Below, in pieces: positions 26,580 through 48,855 of a stretch of DNA of 64,000 bases. The stretch is from the NCBI GenBank assembly GCA_964570465.1, contig CAZMYG010000001.1, forward strand, positions 4,174 through 68,173, given 5' to 3'. Made by a program: the position numbers and the translations under genes. A model generated the notes under the pieces. It searched no databases. It was not told the origin of the DNA and saw nothing but the letters and a program-made list of their open reading frames with translations. This stretch comes from an uncultured Planctomycetales bacterium (lineage in GTDB: Bacteria; Planctomycetota; UBA1135; CAZMYG01). Each line of letters opens with the position of its first letter. Within the stretch, counting starts at the first letter, position 1.

Positions 26580-26613
26580 GGTGTAATCGCTCTAACTGTG
26601 ATCGTGACCGAAT

Positions 26614-26651
26614 GGCGGTGGCTTGCATGACGTAGGCCACCGCTATTTTTT
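26614..26651 (+). terminator. Rho-independent terminator
   Basis: GCGGTGGC (26615-22) pairs with GCCACCGC (26636-43), followed by TATTTTTT. Confidence 0.7.
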
Positions 26652-26710
26652 CGGCCACTAGCACGATTACCACGTCCTGTCAGCAGGTAGCTGAACATGG
26701 GGGATACTCT

Positions 26711-26785
26711 GCGCGCATAAGCCGGAAAAAATTTTTGGCGGGGCGCGGCGCGGCGCGGCGGTTTCGCGGCGGCCGAAATTTTCGC
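26711..26785 (+). promoter_or_regulatory. GCGCGC-AAG box, A6T5 tract, (GGCGC)n and AAATTTT palindrome
   Basis: GCGCGCATAAGCCGGAAAAAATTTTTGG, then GGCGC x3-4, then CCGAAATTTTCG; resembles 22405-22440. Confidence 0.4.
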
Positions 26786-26855
26786 TGTAACTACAGCGAG
26801 GCGGAGAACGGCAGTTTTGTAAATACACCACCGATCCAAGGAGGCACCGTTAAAA

Positions 26856-26891
26856 ATGATTGAAATGATTGAAATGATTGAAGTGAACTGA
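26856..26891 (+). promoter_or_regulatory. upstream mini-ORF MIEMIEMIEVN built from (ATGATTGAA)x3
   Basis: AAGGAGG at 26838-44; 11-codon ORF; its TGA ends 1 nt before the ATG of the next gene. Confidence 0.35.
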
Positions 26892-26892
26892 A

Positions 26893-27288
26893 ATGAAAGC
26901 TCTCAGGTTCCGCGAAACGCGATATCCCTTCGGTCGCGAATCGCTCATGTCCTTACGAATGGACTGCAAGCAGCGTCCTTGGTATCGGGCTGAGTATTGG
27001 CGAGACAGGGTGGACGAGTACACGAAAGCCAGGTGGCTCGTCTTCCGCTGGGATGTTGACGGTGATAACCCGTCTGGTCACTGGCTACTTATTGGCACAT
27101 GTGTCTCTTGGAATCAAGCCAGGCGCATGATCCGTGAGAACTGCAAGAAGGACGATCTGGTCCTTTGTGATCGCCTGAAGATCGAGATAGACCGAATCGA
27201 ACGAGGTCTTACCCCGACTCATTACACGTTCAAGTCGTTCGAGTTGCCTGCTCACGCCAACGAAGGCGAAGAGAAGGCTAGTCTTTAA
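26893..27288 (+). CDS. hypothetical protein
   Basis: 131-aa track ORF, first long ORF of the MoxR operon. Confidence 0.55.
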   Translation: MKALRFRETRYPFGRESLMSLRMDCKQRPWYRAEYWRDRVDEYTKARWLVFRWDVDGDNPSGHWLLIGTCVSWNQARRMIRENCKKDDLVLCDRLKIEIDRIERGLTPTHYTFKSFELPAHANEGEEKASL

Positions 27289-43196: not shown

Positions 43197-44249
43197 ATGG
43201 CCCGCAAACGCACAAGGCGTCAGCGACCTGTCGCTGCCACAGCACTGAAGAAGCAATCTGAGGAACGCTACGAACCCATCGGGCCTGTCGTTCCCGAGGA
43301 CAATGGCGTTGGAGACATCCAGCCCAGAACGTCTCTCACGTTCTCGGAGTACAAGGCATTCGCAGACAAGTTCTGCGACTTCATGGGATGGGCCAACCCT
43401 GTCCACATTGGTCGCGGAATCCTGGCGGTGGCGGCGACGGTCATTCCAGACAACGCCCTGGAGATCATCGAGAACCACCACATCGAGAACAACCGAAACA
43501 AGAAGGATCGAAGGGTCTCGATCTACGCCAGCGACATGAAGCACGATCGTTGGCCGCAGACGCATCAGGGCTTGGCCTTCTCCTACAACTTGGACAAGGG
43601 CAAGTGGGAGATGTACGACGGCCATAATCGCTGTCAGGCGGCTCTCACGGCGGAGGTTGACTTCAAGACCTTGATCTTCTTCATGCCGCCAAGCTTCTCC
43701 GAGGAAGCGAAGCCAAAGACCGACACCGGGGCGTCTCGCAACATTCGTGACGCGGCGGCGATCATGGGCATGAACGTATCGACTCGTTGGCCTGTGATCG
43801 TTCGTGGAATCGCTTTCGGCGGAACGAACTTCAACAAGACCGTGAGCAACGACGCGATCTTCGACGCTTACGAGATCATCAAGGATTCCGTTGATTTCAC
43901 GCTCAAGGCGTTTAACAAGTCGCTCGCCGGCTTGTCAACGAAGGGCGTGATGGCGGCTGTCGGCAGAGCGTACTACCACGTCGATCACGAGAAGCTCGAA
44001 CAGTTCGTGAAGATCGTGTTCTCCGGGTTGGCCACCGATCCTAGCCATGTCTCTGCCGTGAAGCTGGCTCGCTGGCTCGTCAGGGACCAGCGTGGCGGCG
44101 GAATTGGCCAATACGAGACGTATTGCATGGCTGCGAGCGCCATTCAAGCGTTCGTTCGCGGCGAAGAGATTCAGCGTCTCTCCCCTGTTCGCGTTGACCC
44201 GTTCGCTCTTCCTGAAGAGATTGAATGGCGAATCGCGTCGATCTCGTAG
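43197..44249 (+). CDS. ParB N-terminal-domain-like (ParB/Srx nuclease-like) protein
   Basis: Track ORF 43152..44249; ATG at 43197 after GGAGA; MYDGHNRCQAA resembles the ParB DGxHR motif. Confidence 0.5.
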   Translation: MARKRTRRQRPVAATALKKQSEERYEPIGPVVPEDNGVGDIQPRTSLTFSEYKAFADKFCDFMGWANPVHIGRGILAVAATVIPDNALEIIENHHIENNRNKKDRRVSIYASDMKHDRWPQTHQGLAFSYNLDKGKWEMYDGHNRCQAALTAEVDFKTLIFFMPPSFSEEAKPKTDTGASRNIRDAAAIMGMNVSTRWPVIVRGIAFGGTNFNKTVSNDAIFDAYEIIKDSVDFTLKAFNKSLAGLSTKGVMAAVGRAYYHVDHEKLEQFVKIVFSGLATDPSHVSAVKLARWLVRDQRGGGIGQYETYCMAASAIQAFVRGEEIQRLSPVRVDPFALPEEIEWRIASIS

Positions 44250-44800
44250 CAGGACTGGCTACGATGGCAGGGAGTGGCTCGGCAGGCATCGCTACGATGG
44301 CGGGGCAGGGAGCGGCGATGCAGGCTCGATTAGGCTGCGATGGCCCGGCGCGGCTTTCCATCGCAGGCATCTCTACGTTGGCTTGGTAGCCTTGGTAGGC
44401 TCGGCAGGCAGGTCGCGGCCCGGATAGTCACGGCATCGCAGGGCGTGTACCGGCAGGCCCGTCGTGGGTGCGTTCGCTTGGAACGTCAACGCACGGCAGG
44501 CATGGACCGACACGGCTCGTCATGCTAGCGGGGGCATCGCAGGGCTAGGCAGGCCCGTACAGGCTGTGTCGGCAAGGCAAGGCAAGTCGAGGCAGGAATG
44601 ACTAGGCGGGTCCTGGAGAGGTATGTCGTGGCGAGGCAGGCGAGGCGCGTCACGCTAAGGAACGCAAGGTCGGTCACTGCAAGGCAGGCACGTCGCGGAA
44701 GGCACGGATAGGGCGGACTTCGCGTGGCAGGCAAGGCATGGCTAGGCCAGTAGTGGCAGCGCACTACAAGGCAGGCATTAGGAGCGTTTCGGCATGGATG
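44250..44800 (+). repeat. GGCAGG-rich strand-specific repeat block 2 (largest)
   Basis: About 12 GGCAGG, runs such as GGCAAGGCAAGGCAAG, repeated CTACGATGGC(A/G)GGG units; starts at the ParB-like stop codon. Confidence 0.75.
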
Positions 44801-44833
44801 CCATTTTCTTCACCTTTAGATTGAAGGTAGATC

Positions 44834-45607
44834 ATGGCTAAGTCAGTTGTGTTGGAAGGCTTTGAGGAAGAACCACAGAGCAACGGCGTCACCAAGAAGC
44901 CGCGTGGTCGTCCGCGAAAGGAGGTGACCGAAGCCTTCAAGGCGGTCGAGCAGGAGGCCGTCAAGGCCAAGGCGAAGAAGGAGGTCTTCACGGAAGAGAA
45001 GATCAAGATCGAGCCTTTGGTTCTCAAGGAGCTTCACTTGAGGATTCGAGGAAGAACGCCTTACATGCAGGCCAAGTTCAGCAAGAAGGCCCGCACGATC
45101 CTCGAAGAGCGTCACAAGGCCGGCTCGACTTCGCGGACGAAGAAGAACCGGACGGCCCGCGATTTCGACGACGACGGCGAAGGCGCTCGCTACAAGATGC
45201 CTGACAACAGCAGCGGCATCCCTTGTTCAGCCTTCCGAAACGCGATGATCTCAGCGTGTCGGTTGGTTGGCTTCAAAATGACTCTCGCAAAACTCTCGAT
45301 CTTCGTTCGCGCCGATGGGCTGGACGTGGAAGACGGAACGCCGCTTGTGAAGCTGAACGGCGACTACGAGATCACGGTGAAGCCGGTTCGTAACGCCACC
45401 GGCGTCGTCGATCTTCGTGCGCGTCCACAGTGGAAAGAGTGGAGCGCGCTTGTTCGTGTGACGTATGACTCGAAGCAGTTCGATGCTCAGGACGTCTACA
45501 ACTTGATGCACCGCGTTGGTCTTCAAGTAGGAGTCGGTGAAGGCCGACACGACTCCAAATCCTCGGCGGGCATCGGCCTTGGCGAATTCGACGTGGAGCT
45601 TGCATAG
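44834..45607 (+). CDS. hypothetical protein
   Basis: 257-aa track ORF; AT-hook-like KKPRGRPRK near the N-terminus. Confidence 0.6.
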   Translation: MAKSVVLEGFEEEPQSNGVTKKPRGRPRKEVTEAFKAVEQEAVKAKAKKEVFTEEKIKIEPLVLKELHLRIRGRTPYMQAKFSKKARTILEERHKAGSTSRTKKNRTARDFDDDGEGARYKMPDNSSGIPCSAFRNAMISACRLVGFKMTLAKLSIFVRADGLDVEDGTPLVKLNGDYEITVKPVRNATGVVDLRARPQWKEWSALVRVTYDSKQFDAQDVYNLMHRVGLQVGVGEGRHDSKSSAGIGLGEFDVELA

Positions 45608-45608
45608 C

Positions 45609-46076
45609 ATGGCTAAGGATGACAAAAACGATCTGGTCCTTGCTTGCCTTACGGCGATCAGGGACAACGATCCAGCTCGTCAGGTGCAGGCGGAGGCGGT
45701 TGTAGAAGCTGCCAGCGACGTCAGGCATCCGATGCACTCGATGTTTGAGTGGGACGACACGATCGCCGCTCATAAATACAGGATCGACCAAGCTCGTCAC
45801 ATCATCGCTCGGTGCCGAGTCCTCAATCCTGAGGATTCTGGCCCGAAGGTGATTCCCGCTTTCGTGAGCTTGGATGAGGATCGTAAGTTCGAGCGTGGCG
45901 GGTATCGTGACACGCTCGAAGTGAAGGCCGATCCTGTCCTTCGTGAGCAGCTTCTGAAGACCGCCTTGAAGGAGCTGGAGAGCTACAAGAGGCGGCACGC
46001 CATGCTGATTGAGATCGTCGGTCCTATTGATCGCCTCATCAAGCGAGTCAAGAAGGAAAACGGGATCAAGACGTAG
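45609..46076 (+). CDS. hypothetical protein
   Basis: Track ORF 45537..46076; ATG at 45609 directly follows upstream TAG; MFEWDDTIAAHKYRIDQARHII segment. Confidence 0.55.
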   Translation: MAKDDKNDLVLACLTAIRDNDPARQVQAEAVVEAASDVRHPMHSMFEWDDTIAAHKYRIDQARHIIARCRVLNPEDSGPKVIPAFVSLDEDRKFERGGYRDTLEVKADPVLREQLLKTALKELESYKRRHAMLIEIVGPIDRLIKRVKKENGIKT

Positions 46077-46530
46077 CAGGAGCGTCGTGGAGAGCAAAGT
46101 CGGTGCATGGCAGGGCATCGCAGGCGTGGTTGGATTGGCCAGGAAGGACGTCATCGCCAGGCGGCACAAGGCAGGCGGGGTATGGGTGGCACGTCAAGGC
46201 CCGCAAGGTCACGGCAGGGCTGGGCAGGCCGGTTGCGTCGTGTCTTGGATCGTCCCGGAAGGGTGAGGCAGGTAAGGCACGTCGCGTCAAGGCCCGAAAG
46301 GCCAGTCTTCGCAATGCAGGCAAGGACCGTCACGTCATGGCCCGGACCTGCGGGCAGTGGCAAGGCAGGCAAGTCGGGTCGGGGCTTGTCGCGGCATGGT
46401 ACGCCACGTTCGGCACGGCAGGCGAGGCGCGGCAAGGGCAGGCATGTACGGGCAGGGCAGGCGTGGCACGGCAAGGTAGACATGTAGGGGCAAGGCATGG
46501 CAGGCAGGTCATGACTGGGTAGGATTGCAA
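46077..46530 (+). repeat. GGCAGG-rich strand-specific repeat block 3
   Basis: About 11 GGCAGG/GGGCAGG plus GGCAAGG, GGCACG(TC), GTCACG words; three overlapping frames open at once. Confidence 0.75.
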
Positions 46531-46606
46531 TCGAGCGGCTCGTCAACTATACGGTCGGCCCTGAGATAGCATCAACGGGCCGATCGTTTTTAATACAAAG
46601 TGAGTT

Positions 46607-46906
46607 ATGCGCAAGCTATTAACAATAAGTTTGCCGCCTGATCTGCACGCTCGGATCAAGGCTAAAAAAGGAACTAATGTTTCACTCGTCTGTCAGAAGG
46701 CGATCGAGAAGCATCTTGAGTATCTGGAAGGTATTGATACTGGGAGGCTTCCGTCTGTACGTACACTCGTTACGCAGATTCATAACGCTGTATGCGTCAA
46801 GCGTGCTGACAAAGCTGACAAAGCTGACAAACCAGTAGAAGAGTCCAAGCCTCCTAAGAAGAAGAAAGCTAGCAAGAATGGCAAGTCAACAAATGGAAAG
46901 GCTTGA
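46607..46906 (+). CDS. ribbon-helix-helix (CopG/Arc-like) DNA-binding protein
   Basis: 99 aa; LTISLPPDLHARIKA N-terminal strand-helix signature; (GCTGACAAA)x3 encodes ADKADKADK; Lys-rich tail. Confidence 0.55.
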   Translation: MRKLLTISLPPDLHARIKAKKGTNVSLVCQKAIEKHLEYLEGIDTGRLPSVRTLVTQIHNAVCVKRADKADKADKPVEESKPPKKKKASKNGKSTNGKA

Positions 46907-47162
46907 CGACGGAACCAGGCCATGCTGCCTTTGCGGGAGGCCGCTTGAAAGCGCTCATGACTCTGGAGATTGGGAGTTCATGCAGCCGTGGGAAGGAGGC
47001 GAGATCACAATGATTTTCGCCTACGGTTCTCGGGAGTTTGACGAGGCTCCTGGCATGACCAAGTTTCGCGGCTTGATCTGCGATGGCTGCGCGAAGACGA
47101 TCGTAGATAAAGGGTGGCTTGATAAGACACGATACGGATTTCACGGGGAGCCTTGGGAATGA
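46878..47162 (+). CDS. hypothetical Cys-containing protein
   Basis: 94-aa track ORF; CCLCG...CDGC. Confidence 0.5.
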   Translation: MASQQMERLDDGTRPCCLCGRPLESAHDSGDWEFMQPWEGGEITMIFAYGSREFDEAPGMTKFRGLICDGCAKTIVDKGWLDKTRYGFHGEPWE

Positions 47163-47689
47163 CGCCAGAGGAACACGCCGAATGGCTGATGAGAAATCCA
47201 GATCGTGCTTACGAGCTAATCCAGCGCGGCCGAGAGAAGATTAAAATGCTGCGACAGATTCGCGACCAGCAAGCCGCCGAAATCTCGCGGCTGCGGGAGG
47301 AAGCTAAGGCTGTCAACGATCACAACGATTACCTGCTTGCGATTAGCGACAAGACACTCGCCGAGAACGCCCGACTCGCAAAACTCAACGCCGACCTGTC
47401 GGCCGGCGACGTGAAGGAGGTTTGCGAGTTGCGGGAAGAGTTGGAGCGGAAGGAGGAAGAAATCACGCGGCTGACCGCCAATCGAAACAGCGACATGCGG
47501 AAGGTTATCAAATGCGGTGAACTTAACACCCGCCTTCGCACCGCCATCGTCGAGGCTAGGCGGCAGGTAGAAGTTTGCCAGAACGTGCGGCACGATTACG
47601 GCGGCACTGAGGAAATGTATCTTGCCCTCGTCAAGCTCGCCGCCACACTGGACGCCGCTTTGGGAGAGGAGCGAGCGTCGGGAGGTTGA
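47153..47689 (+). CDS. coiled-coil protein
   Basis: 178-aa track ORF. Confidence 0.55.
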   Translation: MGMTPEEHAEWLMRNPDRAYELIQRGREKIKMLRQIRDQQAAEISRLREEAKAVNDHNDYLLAISDKTLAENARLAKLNADLSAGDVKEVCELREELERKEEEITRLTANRNSDMRKVIKCGELNTRLRTAIVEARRQVEVCQNVRHDYGGTEEMYLALVKLAATLDAALGEERASGG

Positions 47690-47721
47690 AATCCCTTGTC
47701 TGATGAGATAGAGGTTTCGCT

Positions 47722-47958
47722 ATGCCAAAGAATCTCAACAAGGTTCATTTCAACGATCGGATAGGACTTGCAATCAGCCACCACAGAAGGCGAGTTGGAA
47801 TCTCCGTAAAGTCCCTGGCTGATTGCTTGGGCGTGTCGAGACAGACGGTTCACGCATGGGAAAGGGGTGAACACGCTCCAGAGACTCACCGCCTACCAGA
47901 CATAGCTAAGGCGCTGAAGATGTCGTTTGCGGAGCTGGTTCGTGGCTTTGACCATTGA
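47722..47958 (+). CDS. XRE-family helix-turn-helix regulator (Cro/CI-type)
   Basis: 78 aa; VKSLADCLGVSRQTVHAWERGEHAP. Confidence 0.75.
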   Translation: MPKNLNKVHFNDRIGLAISHHRRRVGISVKSLADCLGVSRQTVHAWERGEHAPETHRLPDIAKALKMSFAELVRGFDH

Positions 47959-48027
47959 CAAGGAAGTCAACAGGTGTAAGGTATGGGATTACATTTAGGC
48001 CACAGCCCAATCGAGGAAGATCATCCC

Positions 48028-48855
48028 ATGATGCCTTGGTTCATGGTCAGAAGCAATCTCTACGACGACCCAGACGTGATCGCCCTTTCGGCCAAGACGG
48101 GACTGGACGAATATTCAGTTGTTGGAAGGCTCGTAAAGTTCTGGTCATGGCTGGACAAGCATACAGAGGATGGTCGAATTCCGTTTTGTGACAGTGTCAC
48201 AAGTTTGTCACGCCTCGATTCGATGTTTGAAGCGCAGGGCTTCGCTCAGGCAATGATCGACATTGGGTGGCTTGATGTCTCTGACGGGTGGGTCACTATC
48301 CCCCATTTTGATAGGTGGAATGGGGCGACCGCTAAAAAGCGAGCAAAAGACGCAATTCGGCAGAGAGAGCATCGCTCATTGCCGAAGGAAAAGCGTGACA
48401 GTGTCACAAAAACGTCACAAAAAAAGTGTGACAAAAGTGTGACCCTAGAGAAAGAGAAAGAGAAAGAGAAAGAGAAATACAAAGAAGAAGAAACCCCCTA
48501 TATTCCCCCTTTCGAGCTTTCGGCAGACGATCAGCAGAAGTCGAAGAAGCAGAGGGAGAAGCGACCCACCCATGAGCATGGGTCTGTTCAAATCCCAGAG
48601 GGACTCATGACGCCTGGGTTCCAGAGCGCTTGGGGCCGTTGGATCGAGTACCGATCGGCGATCAACCACCCTTACAAGGTACGCCACTCTGAAGAGGGGC
48701 AGCTCTTGTGGTGTCTCAAGAAAGGCCCTGATCGCGCGACCGCCTGCATCGAGGAGTCGATTCGCCAGGGATGGCAGGGAGTGTTCGACCCAGACGATAA
48801 GCGCGCTACGAACGCGCCAAAACCTTTCAAGCACGCCGCCCGGAGCTTCGACTGA
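48028..48855 (+). CDS. replisome-organizer-like replication protein
   Basis: Track ORF 47983..48855; ATG at 48028; MMPWFMVRSNLYDDPDVIALSAKTGLDEYSVVGRLVKFWSW resembles phage replisome organizer / DUF1376 N-termini; carries internal iteron-like repeats. Confidence 0.5.
   Translation: MMPWFMVRSNLYDDPDVIALSAKTGLDEYSVVGRLVKFWSWLDKHTEDGRIPFCDSVTSLSRLDSMFEAQGFAQAMIDIGWLDVSDGWVTIPHFDRWNGATAKKRAKDAIRQREHRSLPKEKRDSVTKTSQKKCDKSVTLEKEKEKEKEKYKEEETPYIPPFELSADDQQKSKKQREKRPTHEHGSVQIPEGLMTPGFQSAWGRWIEYRSAINHPYKVRHSEEGQLLWCLKKGPDRATACIEESIRQGWQGVFDPDDKRATNAPKPFKHAARSFD
48188..48479. repeat. iteron-like GTGACA/TGTCAC cluster plus (GAGAAA)x5
   Basis: 13-bp palindrome GTGACAGTGTCAC at 48188 and 48395; half sites at 48207, 48413, 48426, 48437; purine tract 48450-48479. 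Confidence 0.6.

What the first reader, a model, noticed from the sequence alone, without database searches (positions are those of the whole stretch)
46077..46530. GGCAGG repeat block 3: about 450 bp with three frames open at once, upstream of an RHH regulator
I count about 11 GGCAGG/GGGCAGG plus GGCAAGG, GGCACGTC and GTCACG words. The track shows overlapping ORFs of 139, 126 and 131 aa (two + frames and one - frame) with repetitive ARQG/GKAR or CLPC peptides. That pattern fits stop-poor repetitive DNA rather than coding sequence. The block ends about 75 bp before the ribbon-helix-helix gene (46607), which is another candidate binding partner.
Basis: seen in the sequence. Interest (0 to 1): 0.55.

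Follow-up and report, generated by a model that had tools for sequence, protein, structure and literature searches.

The report
Phage VIPR guide-RNA repeat array
The GGCAGG-rich block is not a gene or a protein-binding DNA site but most likely an array of five-base-repeat guide RNAs (vrRNAs) belonging to a phage-borne VIPR system, a CRISPR-like RNA-guided silencing system first described in 2026 preprints.

Summary
Window 46077-46530 holds 12 GGCAGG, all on the + strand. It is G-rich and T-poor and has no codon periodicity, but a strong ~4.85-nt periodicity. The base unit is the pentamer YNNGG (GGY conserved, NN variable). GGCAGGY marks places where a 4-nt unit (CAGG) replaces a pentamer, every ~43-53 nt.

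The two genes just upstream are a Vipr-type RAMP protein (44834-45607) and an accessory gene (45609-46076). A profile of the protein's family hits only the SUSP1 Vipr protein in the PDB (E 1.4e-6). Its model matches Cas7/Csm3.

In 43 of 50 related loci from many bacterial phyla, and in Cy-LDV1 and mycobacteriophage Donkeykong, same-strand pentamer arrays with the same CAGG step flank the homologous gene pair. Most often they lie just downstream of the accessory gene, as here.

Blocks 1 (40920-41141), 2 (44250-44790) and 3 are therefore candidate vrRNA arrays of the "staggered" kind.

The proposed RHH/ParB partners are not supported.

Caveats:
- The arrays are unusually degenerate (54% perfect units, against 83% in relatives).
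- No targets were found.
- Expression is untested.

This is a new member of a recently described kind.

The parts
46077..46530 (+). Block 3 (the finding): candidate vrRNA array just downstream of vap. It has about 83 YNNGG-type units, 9 GGCAGGY 4-nt-step junctions plus one degenerate TGCAGGC at 46315, and about 6 full-length segments of 43-53 nt (9-11 units) with some short ones.
   Evidence: The position matches the commonest array position in relatives.
44250..44790 (+). Block 2: candidate vrRNA array just upstream of vipr, with about 106 units and 13 GGCAGG.
   Evidence: Period 4.8 gives z 27. Short-read assemblies break here.
40920..41141 (+). Block 1: a third, remote candidate vrRNA array with 5 GGCAGG. 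It runs up to the start codon of the exonuclease gene, 3.7 kb upstream of vipr.
   Evidence: Period 4.8 gives z 17.
44834..45607 (+). vipr candidate: a 257-aa RAMP (Cas7-like) protein of PHROG 4652. G-loop VGVGEGR (residues 232-238); thumb-region Arg197.
   Evidence: The family profile hits only the SUSP1 Vipr chain in the PDB, E 1.4e-6. hhalign against SUSP2 Vipr gives probability 96%. The AF2 model has pLDDT 80. Foldseek gives 58 PDB hits at E<=1e-3; all 50 listed are Csm3, Cas7 or Cmr-type chains. Family size is 4600.
45609..46076 (+). vap candidate: a 155-aa accessory protein of PHROG 15946 with an invariant H..FEWDD..A motif. Its function is unknown; the fold is weakly winged-helix-like with a long C-terminal helix.
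   Evidence: The gene call is. A homolog follows vipr in 44 of 50 related loci. The AF2 model has pLDDT 93.8. The best Foldseek PDB match is E 0.3, to forkhead/winged-helix domains. It shows no BLASTP similarity to the SUSP2 accessory gene.
46551..46591 (+). Terminator-like hairpin (46551-46587) followed by UUUUU, between the array and the next ORF. It is a possible 3' end of the vipr-vap-array transcript.
   Evidence: The RNA fold gives -25.7 kcal/mol, z -2.0. The consensus terminator scan did not pick it up because the loop is long.

Best explanation
Block 3 is the downstream guide-RNA (vrRNA) array of a phage-encoded VIPR (Viral Interference Programmable Repeat) system. Blocks 1 and 2 are further arrays of the same system. 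vipr is 44834-45607 and the accessory gene vap is 45609-46076.

Shown here:
- The block is non-coding.
- It is built of same-strand 5-nt units with conserved G-G/T-Y and uninformative NN.
- The adjacent protein has a RAMP fold and is a remote homolog of the solved SUSP1 Vipr.
- The combination of arrays, vipr and vap, with arrays in these same positions, recurs in distant phages and prophages.

Inferred from the 2026 preprints on SUSP1 and P. fulva VIPR:
- The + strand is transcribed with the operon.
- Vipr protomers polymerise on the RNA, one per pentamer. They sequester each GGY and present the NN dinucleotides.
- The NN dinucleotides pair with double-stranded DNA targets of the form xNNxNN (one target base skipped per unit).
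- Binding silences transcription, probably of competing phages or prophages.

Inferred from the legend of the preprint's fig. S18 and my parse: GGCAGGY is the junction of a 'staggered' array. There the last unit of one vrRNA (GGCAG) overlaps the first unit of the next (GGYNN) by one G. Block 3 would then give about 6 vrRNAs of 9-11 units and no separate hairpin tail.
For: 1. Repeat anatomy.
- Autocorrelation peaks at 5, 10, 14, 19, 24 ... 43, 48 and 53 nt, and the spectral peak is at 4.85 nt.
- A profile anchored only on GGCAGG shows information at the G positions every 5 nt and about 0 bits at the NN positions.
- A dynamic-programming parse splits all three blocks into CAGG followed by runs of YNNGG units.

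2. Protein.
- A profile of 30 family members hits one PDB sequence only, 'SUSP1 Vipr protein' 36pp_D, E 1.4e-6.
- hhalign against SUSP2 Vipr gives probability 96%, E 3.9e-9.
- The aligned residues include the published RNA-contact residues: R138->R197, D177->E236 and R179->R238, all invariant in the family (residues from 10.64898/2026.04.26.720927).
- The AF2 model matches Cas7/Csm3/Cmr4 backbones (58 hits at E<=1e-3, best 7.6e-6).

3. Comparative.
- Cy-LDV1 (55% identical protein) has arrays between the two genes and after the second gene.
- Mycobacteriophage Donkeykong has a 354-nt array, 95% perfect YNNGG, directly upstream of the pair.
- 43 of 50 genome loci have period-5 arrays. All are on the vipr strand, and none on the opposite strand shows the 5-nt register.
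- vap follows vipr in 44 of 50 loci, and 'just downstream of vap' is the commonest array position.

4. Junction. The 4-nt units are CAGG in 247 of 314 cases in relatives, 7 of 7 in Donkeykong, 11 of 11 in Cy-LDV1 and 30 of 44 in the window. Junction spacings in relatives pile up at 5n-1 (39, 44, 49, 54, 59).

5. Context. The window is a phage: portal, large terminase and major head protein, and exonuclease and replication initiator.

6. Literature. 10.64898/2026.04.26.720920 defines VIPR as Vipr plus vap plus GGY/NN pentamer vrRNAs in long intergenic regions flanking vipr. It is mostly viral or proviral, and includes 'staggered arrays with overlapping vrRNAs'.
Against: - The arrays are unusually degenerate. 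Only 54% of 5-nt units (58% in block 3) are perfect YNNGG, against 83% in relatives, and the second G is T in 22% of units.
- The preprint's search criterion (at least 4 consecutive perfect YNNGG) is not met in any block; the maximum is 3. Only relaxed forms pass: YNNGK x6 at 46370-46399 and NNNGG x6 at 46447-46476.
- In SUSP1, GGY substitutions abolish silencing (preprint fig. S12 legend).
- The Trp that stacks on G2 in SUSP1 is Gly in this family.
- No conserved 3' tail or structure was found; the block 3 fold gives z -0.32.
- No target was found. The best self or local match is 14 of 18 NN positions, the same as shuffled guides, and two exact scans of viral contigs with window guides returned nothing.
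- There is no expression or processing data.
- Sequence similarity to SUSP1 Vipr is confined to the C-terminal ~50 residues.
- The VIPR type cannot be assigned, because the preprint's supplementary tables are not available.
Confidence: 0.85

Rival explanations
1. Relic array: the blocks derive from VIPR vrRNA arrays but are decaying and no longer yield functional guides in this phage.
For: The window has 54% perfect units, against 83% in relatives and 95% in Donkeykong. There are extra 4-nt slips, with spacing 43/48/53 rather than 44/49/54. G2 is T in 22% of units. Only about 11 nine-unit stretches stay in register. No targets were found.
Against: vipr keeps all 44 invariant columns of its family, and vap is intact. 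About 1.2 kb of array is retained in three places, still with strong periodicity (z 7-27) and 30 intact GGCAGG. [quoted passage not shown] The sequence is identical in three independent sequencing runs.
Confidence: 0.1
2. The block is a DNA-level array of protein-binding sites (centromere- or iteron-like, as in the 43-bp sopC repeats of F plasmid). It would be bound by the upstream 365-aa 'ParB-like' protein or the downstream RHH-like protein.
For: GGCAGG spacing of 43-53 bp. Block 2 directly follows the 365-aa ORF, and block 3 precedes the small RHH-like ORF.
Against: The real unit is 5 nt, strictly one-stranded, with variable NN. There are no inverted repeats or a conserved 43-bp unit. Arrays in 43 related loci and two phages travel with vipr and vap, not with ParB or RHH genes. 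The 365-aa ORF has no homologs. Neither ORF has a Pfam ParB or RHH hit.
Confidence: 0.03
3. The block is a G-rich structural or regulatory element independent of Vipr. Examples are an R-loop or G-quadruplex former on the non-template strand, or an RNA sponge for a host RNA-binding protein.
For: Strong GC skew, with G 42% against C 24%, and many GG runs spaced 2-3 nt apart.
Against: This does not explain the conserved Y after GG, the variable NN, the conserved CAGG step, or the tight linkage to a RAMP gene. The RNA has no excess structure (z -0.32).
Confidence: 0.02
4. One of the overlapping ORFs (139, 126 or 131 aa) encodes a repetitive protein.
For: The ORFs are open. A gene caller called the 139-aa ORF. 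The equivalent array in Donkeykong is annotated as gene 48.
Against: There is no period-3 signal (z -0.2, against 13-30 for neighbouring genes). A 4.85-nt period with frame-breaking 4-nt steps cannot preserve a reading frame. There are no PHROG hits. All frames are open simply because T is 14%.
Confidence: 0.01

Closest known systems
VIPR systems with 'staggered' vrRNA arrays (bioRxiv 10.64898/2026.04.26.720920, fig. S18 legend)
   Same: [quoted passage not shown] Here GGCAG|GGYNN share one G, giving the GGCAGGY word. Both are phage-borne, have vipr plus one accessory gene, and carry arrays in the intergenic regions flanking them.
   Different: The figure and supplementary tables were not available, so identity of type, junction sequence and accessory gene could not be checked. 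The window's arrays are more degenerate than those of its relatives, and it has a third array 3.7 kb away, beyond three unrelated genes.
Type II VIPR of Escherichia phage SUSP1/SUSP2 and the Pseudomonas fulva prophage (experimentally characterised; cryo-EM in 10.64898/2026.04.26.720927)
   Same: Both have a RAMP-fold Vipr with a G-loop and thumb arginine, GGY/NN pentamer guide repeats of about 9-16 units on the gene strand both upstream and downstream of the genes, and a small accessory gene directly after vipr.
   Different: SUSP2 vrRNAs are separate units of about 100 nt made of GGTNN repeats, each followed by a hairpin/pseudoknot tail and AT-rich spacers. The window uses GGC, has no tails and has abutting units. 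Protein similarity is remote: only the C-terminal ~50 residues align, and the G-loop is GEGR rather than GDWR. The accessory proteins show no sequence similarity.
Class 1 CRISPR crRNA-Cas7 backbone filaments (Csm3, Cmr4, type VII Cas7)
   Same: The predicted fold of the 257-aa protein matches these RAMPs. Both follow the logic of one protomer per fixed number of guide nucleotides, with a thumb that flips bases.
   Different: There is no repeat-spacer array, no cas1/cas2, no Cas6, no large subunit and no second RRM. The period is 5 nt with 2 informative bases, rather than 6 nt with 5.
TRAP binding sites in Bacillus trp leader RNA (from my own knowledge; considered as an analogy before the VIPR papers were found)
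   Same: Both have short conserved triplets repeated at about 5-nt spacing on a single-stranded RNA, read by an oligomeric protein with one subunit per repeat.
   Different: TRAP binds 11 (G/U)AG triplets on a closed ring for attenuation. It has no relation in protein fold, and its spacer bases do not encode a programmable target.
sopC/parS-type centromere repeats (F plasmid, 12 x 43 bp; from my own knowledge)
   Same: Spacing of about 43-bp repeats next to a gene with a ParB-like motif.
   Different: There is no conserved 43-bp unit, no inverted-repeat core and no ParA/ParB pair. The repeat is strand-specific, and the comparative linkage is to vipr.

Membership tests
VIPR system | The Vipr protein is a minimal RAMP with an RRM core, a glycine-rich loop and a thumb. 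| tested here: met
   The AF2 model (pLDDT 80) gives 58 Foldseek PDB hits at E<=1e-3; all 50 listed are Cas7-type RAMPs. The family has an invariant G-x-G-E-G-R loop (G233, G235, E236, G237, R238) and a long beta-hairpin at 178-200 with invariant R195 and R197.
VIPR system | The protein is homologous to an experimentally defined Vipr. | tested here: met
   The profile of alignment A1 has the SUSP1 Vipr chain 36pp_D as its only PDB hit, E 1.4e-6. hhalign against SUSP2 Vipr gives probability 96%, E 3.9e-9. The alignment covers only the C-terminal ~50-57 residues. A single-sequence search is not significant (E 0.92).
VIPR system | The RNA-contact residues of SUSP1 Vipr (H17, R138, D177, W178, R179) are conserved. 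| tested here: inconclusive
   R138->R197, D177->E236 and R179->R238 are all invariant in the family. W178->G237 is not conserved. H17->Q79 rests only on a non-significant N-terminal alignment.
VIPR system | The vrRNA consists of tandem YNNGG pentamers, with conserved GGY alternating with hypervariable NN, in tracts of about 9-16 units. | tested here: met
   The anchor-based profile shows G peaks every 5 nt and NN at about 0 bits. In parsed units of the three blocks combined, Y1 is C 81% plus T 10%, G4 is 85%, G5 is 73% plus T 22%, and all 16 NN dinucleotides are used; block 3 alone uses 14. Segments between slip junctions are 43-53 nt, or 9-11 units.
VIPR system | The preprint's detection threshold is met: at least 4 consecutive perfect YNNGG units. 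| tested here: not met
   The maximum is 3 in any block. This is a search heuristic, not a definition. The preprint reports internal degeneracy and NNNGG/YNNNG variants. Relaxed runs are met: YNNGK x6 at 46370 and NNNGG x6 at 46447. Relatives meet the strict threshold easily.
VIPR system | Arrays lie in long intergenic regions flanking vipr, on the coding strand. | tested here: met
   Block 2 ends 44 nt before vipr, and block 3 starts at the vap stop codon. All GGCAGG are on the + strand. The same holds in 43 of 50 related loci, and none of those loci has an opposite-strand array in 5-nt register.
VIPR system | An adjacent accessory gene (vap) has a predicted DNA-interacting function. | tested here: inconclusive
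   The adjacent gene is conserved in 44 of 50 loci. The DNA-binding fold is only hinted at: the best PDB match is E 0.3 to forkhead/winged-helix domains, with target TM about 0.55. There is no Pfam hit and no similarity to the SUSP2 accessory protein.
VIPR system | Each vrRNA carries a conserved structured 3' tail (type II feature). | tested here: not met
   There is no non-repeat segment between units. Block 3 has no excess folding (z -0.32). This is expected if the array is of the tail-less 'staggered' kind. It argues against type II, not against VIPR.
VIPR system | The vrRNAs are expressed, processed and bound by Vipr. | not testable with these tools
   This needs small-RNA sequencing and RNP pull-down.
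VIPR system | Natural DNA targets obey the 1-nt skip rule (xNN), typically in competing mobile elements, with no self-targets. | tested here: inconclusive
   There is no self-target or target in held loci above shuffled controls (best 14 of 18), which agrees with the reported absence of self-targeting. Exact scans of viral contigs with two window guides and two Donkeykong guides gave 0 hits.
VIPR system | The genomic context is viral or proviral. | tested here: met
   Portal, large terminase and major head protein, and exonuclease VIII-like and replication initiator.
CRISPR array | Near-identical direct repeats of about 23-50 nt alternate with unique spacers, and cas genes are nearby. | tested here: not met
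   The repeat finder gives only 60-80% identical, overlapping families. The unit is 5 nt. Rfam finds only tRNAs.
ParB/parS or SopB/sopC centromere | A ParB-family protein is present together with repeated palindromic binding sites. | tested here: not met
   The 365-aa ORF has no Pfam ParB hit. The unit has no inverted-repeat core. The comparative linkage is to vipr instead.

The most novel reading that the evidence does not exclude
The degeneracy is functional rather than decay. This Vipr clade has Gly in its G-loop where SUSP1 has the Trp that stacks on G2. It would read a relaxed G-K-Y code and tolerate 4-nt steps. The clade-wide CAGG step would be the ruler that sets filament length and the processing sites in tail-less arrays. 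The third array, sitting directly in front of the exonuclease/recombination genes, would show that vrRNA arrays double as intercistronic spacers that couple guide production to early-operon transcription. If so, this widespread clade (including the tractable cluster F mycobacteriophages) would extend the published VIPR code and supply a processing rule.
Probability: 0.15. Interest if true: 0.6.

Novelty: new member of a known kind. Interest (0 to 1): 0.5.

Why it matters
VIPR was described only in April-June 2026 as an RNA-guided DNA-silencing system proposed to predate CRISPR. This window adds an uncultivated phage carrying three arrays, about 1.2 kb in total with 30 GGCAGG words of which about 23 are GGCAGGY step junctions.

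The work also shows four broader points:
- The same tail-less, CAGG-punctuated architecture recurs with a conserved vipr and FEWDD-type accessory gene pair in at least 43 loci from many bacterial phyla.
- The same gene pair occurs in 27 Mycobacterium and 5 Gordonia phage records; in the one examined, Donkeykong, it is preceded by such an array.
- These arrays are routinely mis-called as protein genes, for example Donkeykong gene 48 and the 139-aa ORF here.
- The arrays break short-read assemblies.

Practically, a 4.8-5-nt periodicity with GG peaks, next to a PHROG 4652 gene, is a simple annotation rule. M. smegmatis phages would offer an experimental system for this VIPR clade.

Tried and rejected
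- **Centromere or iteron reading.** The 43-bp spacing and the ParB-like neighbour suggested it. I rejected it because the unit is 5 nt, strand-specific and linked to vipr.
- **TRAP-like RNA site, CsrA-type sponge, Chi-site cluster, R-loop/G4 element.** I considered these from memory before the literature hit. None explains the conserved Y, the variable NN, the CAGG step and the RAMP linkage.
- **Coding.** Rejected by spectral analysis and the lack of family hits.
- **Known RNA family.** Rfam finds only tRNAs in the window.
- **Homologs of the 365-aa ORF.** None were found in viral contigs or in the 5.8-billion-protein search.
- **DNA similarity of 40100-48000 to phage records.** Only the tRNA-Gly matched.
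- **ACGTC/CACGTC words.** They are enriched, but not at a fixed offset from junctions, and are absent from relatives' arrays. They are degenerate GTC units, not a separate motif.
- **Target search.** Local approximate search gave nothing above controls. Four exact gapped-pattern scans of viral contigs gave 0 hits.
- **Supplementary tables of the preprint.** They are not held, so the VIPR type could not be assigned.

Full report
**1. The observation.**
Window 46077-46530 contains 12 GGCAGG, all on the + strand. The whole window has 67 on both strands, against 35.7 +/- 5.8 in dinucleotide shuffles. Thirty of them sit in three intergenic blocks (40920-41141, 44250-44790, 46077-46530), always on the + strand. 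The three overlapping ORFs of 139, 126 and 131 aa exist. The block is 41.9% G and 13.9% T, which is enough to keep several frames open.

**2. Coding or not.**
Fourier power at period 3 is at shuffle level in all three blocks (z between -0.2 and 0.1). For the neighbouring genes z is 13-30. The blocks instead peak near 4.8-4.85 nt, with z from 7 to 27. The three ORFs, and the annotated 'gene 48' that covers the equivalent array in a mycobacteriophage, match no PHROG family. The block is not coding.

**3. Anatomy.**
- Autocorrelation peaks at 5, 10, 14, 19, 24 ... 43, 48 and 53 nt.
- A profile anchored only on GGCAGG shows high information at G positions every five bases, a weaker C after them, and essentially no information at the two positions in between.
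- A dynamic-programming parse splits every block into a 4-nt unit CAGG followed by runs of YNNGG units.
- GGCAGGY is therefore the place where a 4-nt step interrupts the 5-nt register. GGCAGGG is merely an in-phase unit with NN = AG.
- Block 3 has 9 such step junctions, plus a degenerate TGCAGGC at 46315. Their spacings are 53, 44, 49, 48, 53, 20, 19, 43 and 4 nt, which gives about six segments of 9-11 units.
- The RNA has no excess secondary structure (z -0.32).
- A hairpin with a U5 tract follows at 46551-46591.

**4. Surroundings.**
- The window is a phage. It has a portal, large terminase and major head protein on the - strand.
- The + strand carries an exonuclease VIII-like PD-(D/E)XK gene (41142-41978), PHROG 3657, and a replication initiator (47983-48855).
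- Block 2 precedes a 257-aa ORF (44834-45607, PHROG 4652).
- That ORF is followed at once by a 155-aa ORF (45609-46076, PHROG 15946; gene call).
- Block 3 starts at the stop codon of the 155-aa ORF.

**5. Comparative evidence.**
- The two genes are an adjacent pair in 'Cyanophage Cy-LDV1', 27 Mycobacterium phage records and 5 Gordonia phage records.
- Cy-LDV1 (55% identical protein) has the same G-rich pentamer arrays between the two genes and after the second one. Both arrays run up to the next ribosome-binding site.
- Mycobacteriophage Donkeykong has a 354-nt array, 95% perfect YNNGG, directly upstream of the pair. It is annotated there as gene 48.
- A degenerate-pattern scan of one genome per species found 50 loci from Proteobacteria, Planctomycetota, Verrucomicrobiota, Cyanobacteria, Acidobacteriota and others.
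- Of these, 43 carry period-5 arrays. All are on the strand of the gene, and none on the opposite strand shows the 5-nt register.
- The second gene follows the first in 44 of 50 loci.
- The arrays sit upstream of the first gene, between the two, or 20-300 nt after the second. The last position is the commonest and is the position of block 3.
- The 4-nt step is CAGG in 247 of 314 cases in these loci, 7 of 7 in Donkeykong and 11 of 11 in Cy-LDV1. Junction spacings cluster at 5n-1.

**6. Identification.**
- A single-sequence search of the 257-aa protein against PDB sequences gave a weak hit to 'SUSP1 Vipr protein' (E 0.92).
- That hit led to two 2026 preprints.
- With a 30-sequence family profile, the same chain is the only PDB hit, at E 1.4e-6.
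- hhalign against the SUSP2 ortholog gives probability 96%.
- The AlphaFold model (pLDDT 80) matches Cas7-type RAMPs exclusively among the 50 listed hits (58 hits at E<=1e-3).
- The aligned region contains the published RNA-contact residues. R138, D177 and R179 correspond to the invariant R197, E236 and R238. W178 corresponds to an invariant Gly (residues from 10.64898/2026.04.26.720927).

**7. What the preprints say.**
The source is 10.64898/2026.04.26.720920.
- VIPR systems consist of a minimal RAMP (Vipr), an accessory gene (vap) and vrRNAs.
- The vrRNAs are made of 9-16 YNNGG repeats and lie in long intergenic regions flanking vipr. The systems occur mostly in phages and prophages.
- One Vipr protomer binds each repeat, hides GGY and presents NN.
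- The NN dinucleotides pair with double-stranded DNA while skipping every third target base.
- Binding silences transcription, and natural targets are competing phages, satellites and prophages.
- Seven types are described, including 'staggered arrays with overlapping vrRNAs' whose units overlap by 1 nt.
- Read as GGCAG overlapping GGYNN by one G, the CAGG step seen here fits that description. I could read only the legend, not the figure, so this step is an inference.

**8. Mechanism proposed for block 3.**
- The block is transcribed on the + strand with vipr and vap. This is inferred from the shared strand, the absence of a gap after vap, and the terminator-like hairpin after the block.
- The transcript is coated by the 257-aa protein, one protomer per pentamer.
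- It is divided at the GGCAG|G steps into roughly six guides of 9-11 units.
- The guides direct silencing of xNN-patterned DNA in a competitor element.

The anatomy, the protein family and the comparative linkage are shown here. Expression, processing, binding and targets are inferred.

**9. Differences and caveats.**
- Compared with SUSP2, the window uses GGC rather than GGT, has no hairpin tails or AT-rich spacers, and has an accessory protein with no detectable similarity.
- The accessory protein's model is confident (pLDDT 93.8). It matches only forkhead/winged-helix domains, at non-significant E values.
- The window's arrays are clearly more degenerate than those of relatives. Perfect units are 54%, against 83%. 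T replaces the second G in 22% of units. Most segments carry an extra 4-nt slip.
- The preprint's search threshold of four perfect units in a row is not reached, although relaxed forms reach six.
- The sequence is identical in three sequencing runs, so the degeneracy is not an assembly artefact.
- Whether the degeneracy reflects decay or a relaxed code is open.
- No self-target exceeds shuffled controls, as the preprint also reports for its systems. Four exact gapped scans of viral contigs found nothing. The tools cannot run the approximate search that the authors used.

**10. Verdict.**
The block is real and non-coding. With about 85% confidence it is a vrRNA array of a VIPR system. This is a new member of a very recently described kind, not a new kind.

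The noteworthy extras are:
- three arrays, including one remote array in front of the recombination genes;
- the clade-wide CAGG junction;
- the unusual degeneracy;
- the presence of this clade's gene pair in many actinobacteriophage records, and in Donkeykong an array annotated as a gene.

Noticed in passing
L003 2456-2842 (Mycobacterium phage Donkeykong NC_051648.1, record 36870-37256, gene 48): The annotated 'hypothetical protein' gene 48 is entirely a clean (GGCNN)n array, 95% perfect YNNGG with 7 CAGG steps. It lies upstream of gp49 (Vipr homolog), gp50 (accessory homolog) and excisionase, so it is probably a mis-annotated vrRNA array. 27 Mycobacterium and 5 Gordonia phage records carry the gene pair. 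The preprint's main text never mentions mycobacteria.
   Followed up: partly
window 46103-46522 (= L004 1288-1707): An automatic gene caller called the 139-aa ORF across block 3 as a gene in a public assembly. Arrays of this kind appear to be a recurrent source of false protein predictions.
   Followed up: partly
window 44275-44403 (ends of Logan contigs L001, L005, L006): Three independent short-read assemblies of the same phage end or start inside block 2, so the pentamer array breaks assemblies. All overlapping contigs are 100% identical to the window.
   Followed up: yes
window 26734-26758 and 26854-26896: The only run of at least 4 perfect YNNGG units in the window is a simple (GGCGC)x5 tract flanked by A/T runs. 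About 100 nt downstream, (AAATGATTG)x4.7 runs up to a start codon. Both lie in the 26580-26892 intergenic gap, far from vipr. Their meaning is unknown.
   Followed up: no
window 48184-48446, inside ORF 47983-48855: The lambda O-like replication initiator gene contains GTGACA-type inverted and direct repeats and an (AGAGAA)n tract. These are probably origin iterons lying within the initiator gene, as in lambdoid phages.
   Followed up: no
window 40572-40642, 35403-35476, 38486-38557, 34529-34598: tRNA-Gly(UCC) and tRNA-Met are found, plus two weaker Rfam tRNA matches. ORF 40586-40936 overlaps the tRNA-Gly and block 1 and is probably not a gene.
   Followed up: partly
Its only match is PHROG 5931 (E 1.9e-15). 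It sits between block 1 and block 2 together with the exonuclease and a PHROG 3657 protein.
   Followed up: partly
window 40920-41141, 44250-44790, 46077-46530: ACGTC and CACGTC words are about 6-fold enriched in the blocks (10, against 1.6 expected). They are absent from the arrays of Donkeykong and Cy-LDV1. They arise from GGC->GTC units and have no fixed offset from junctions.
   Followed up: yes
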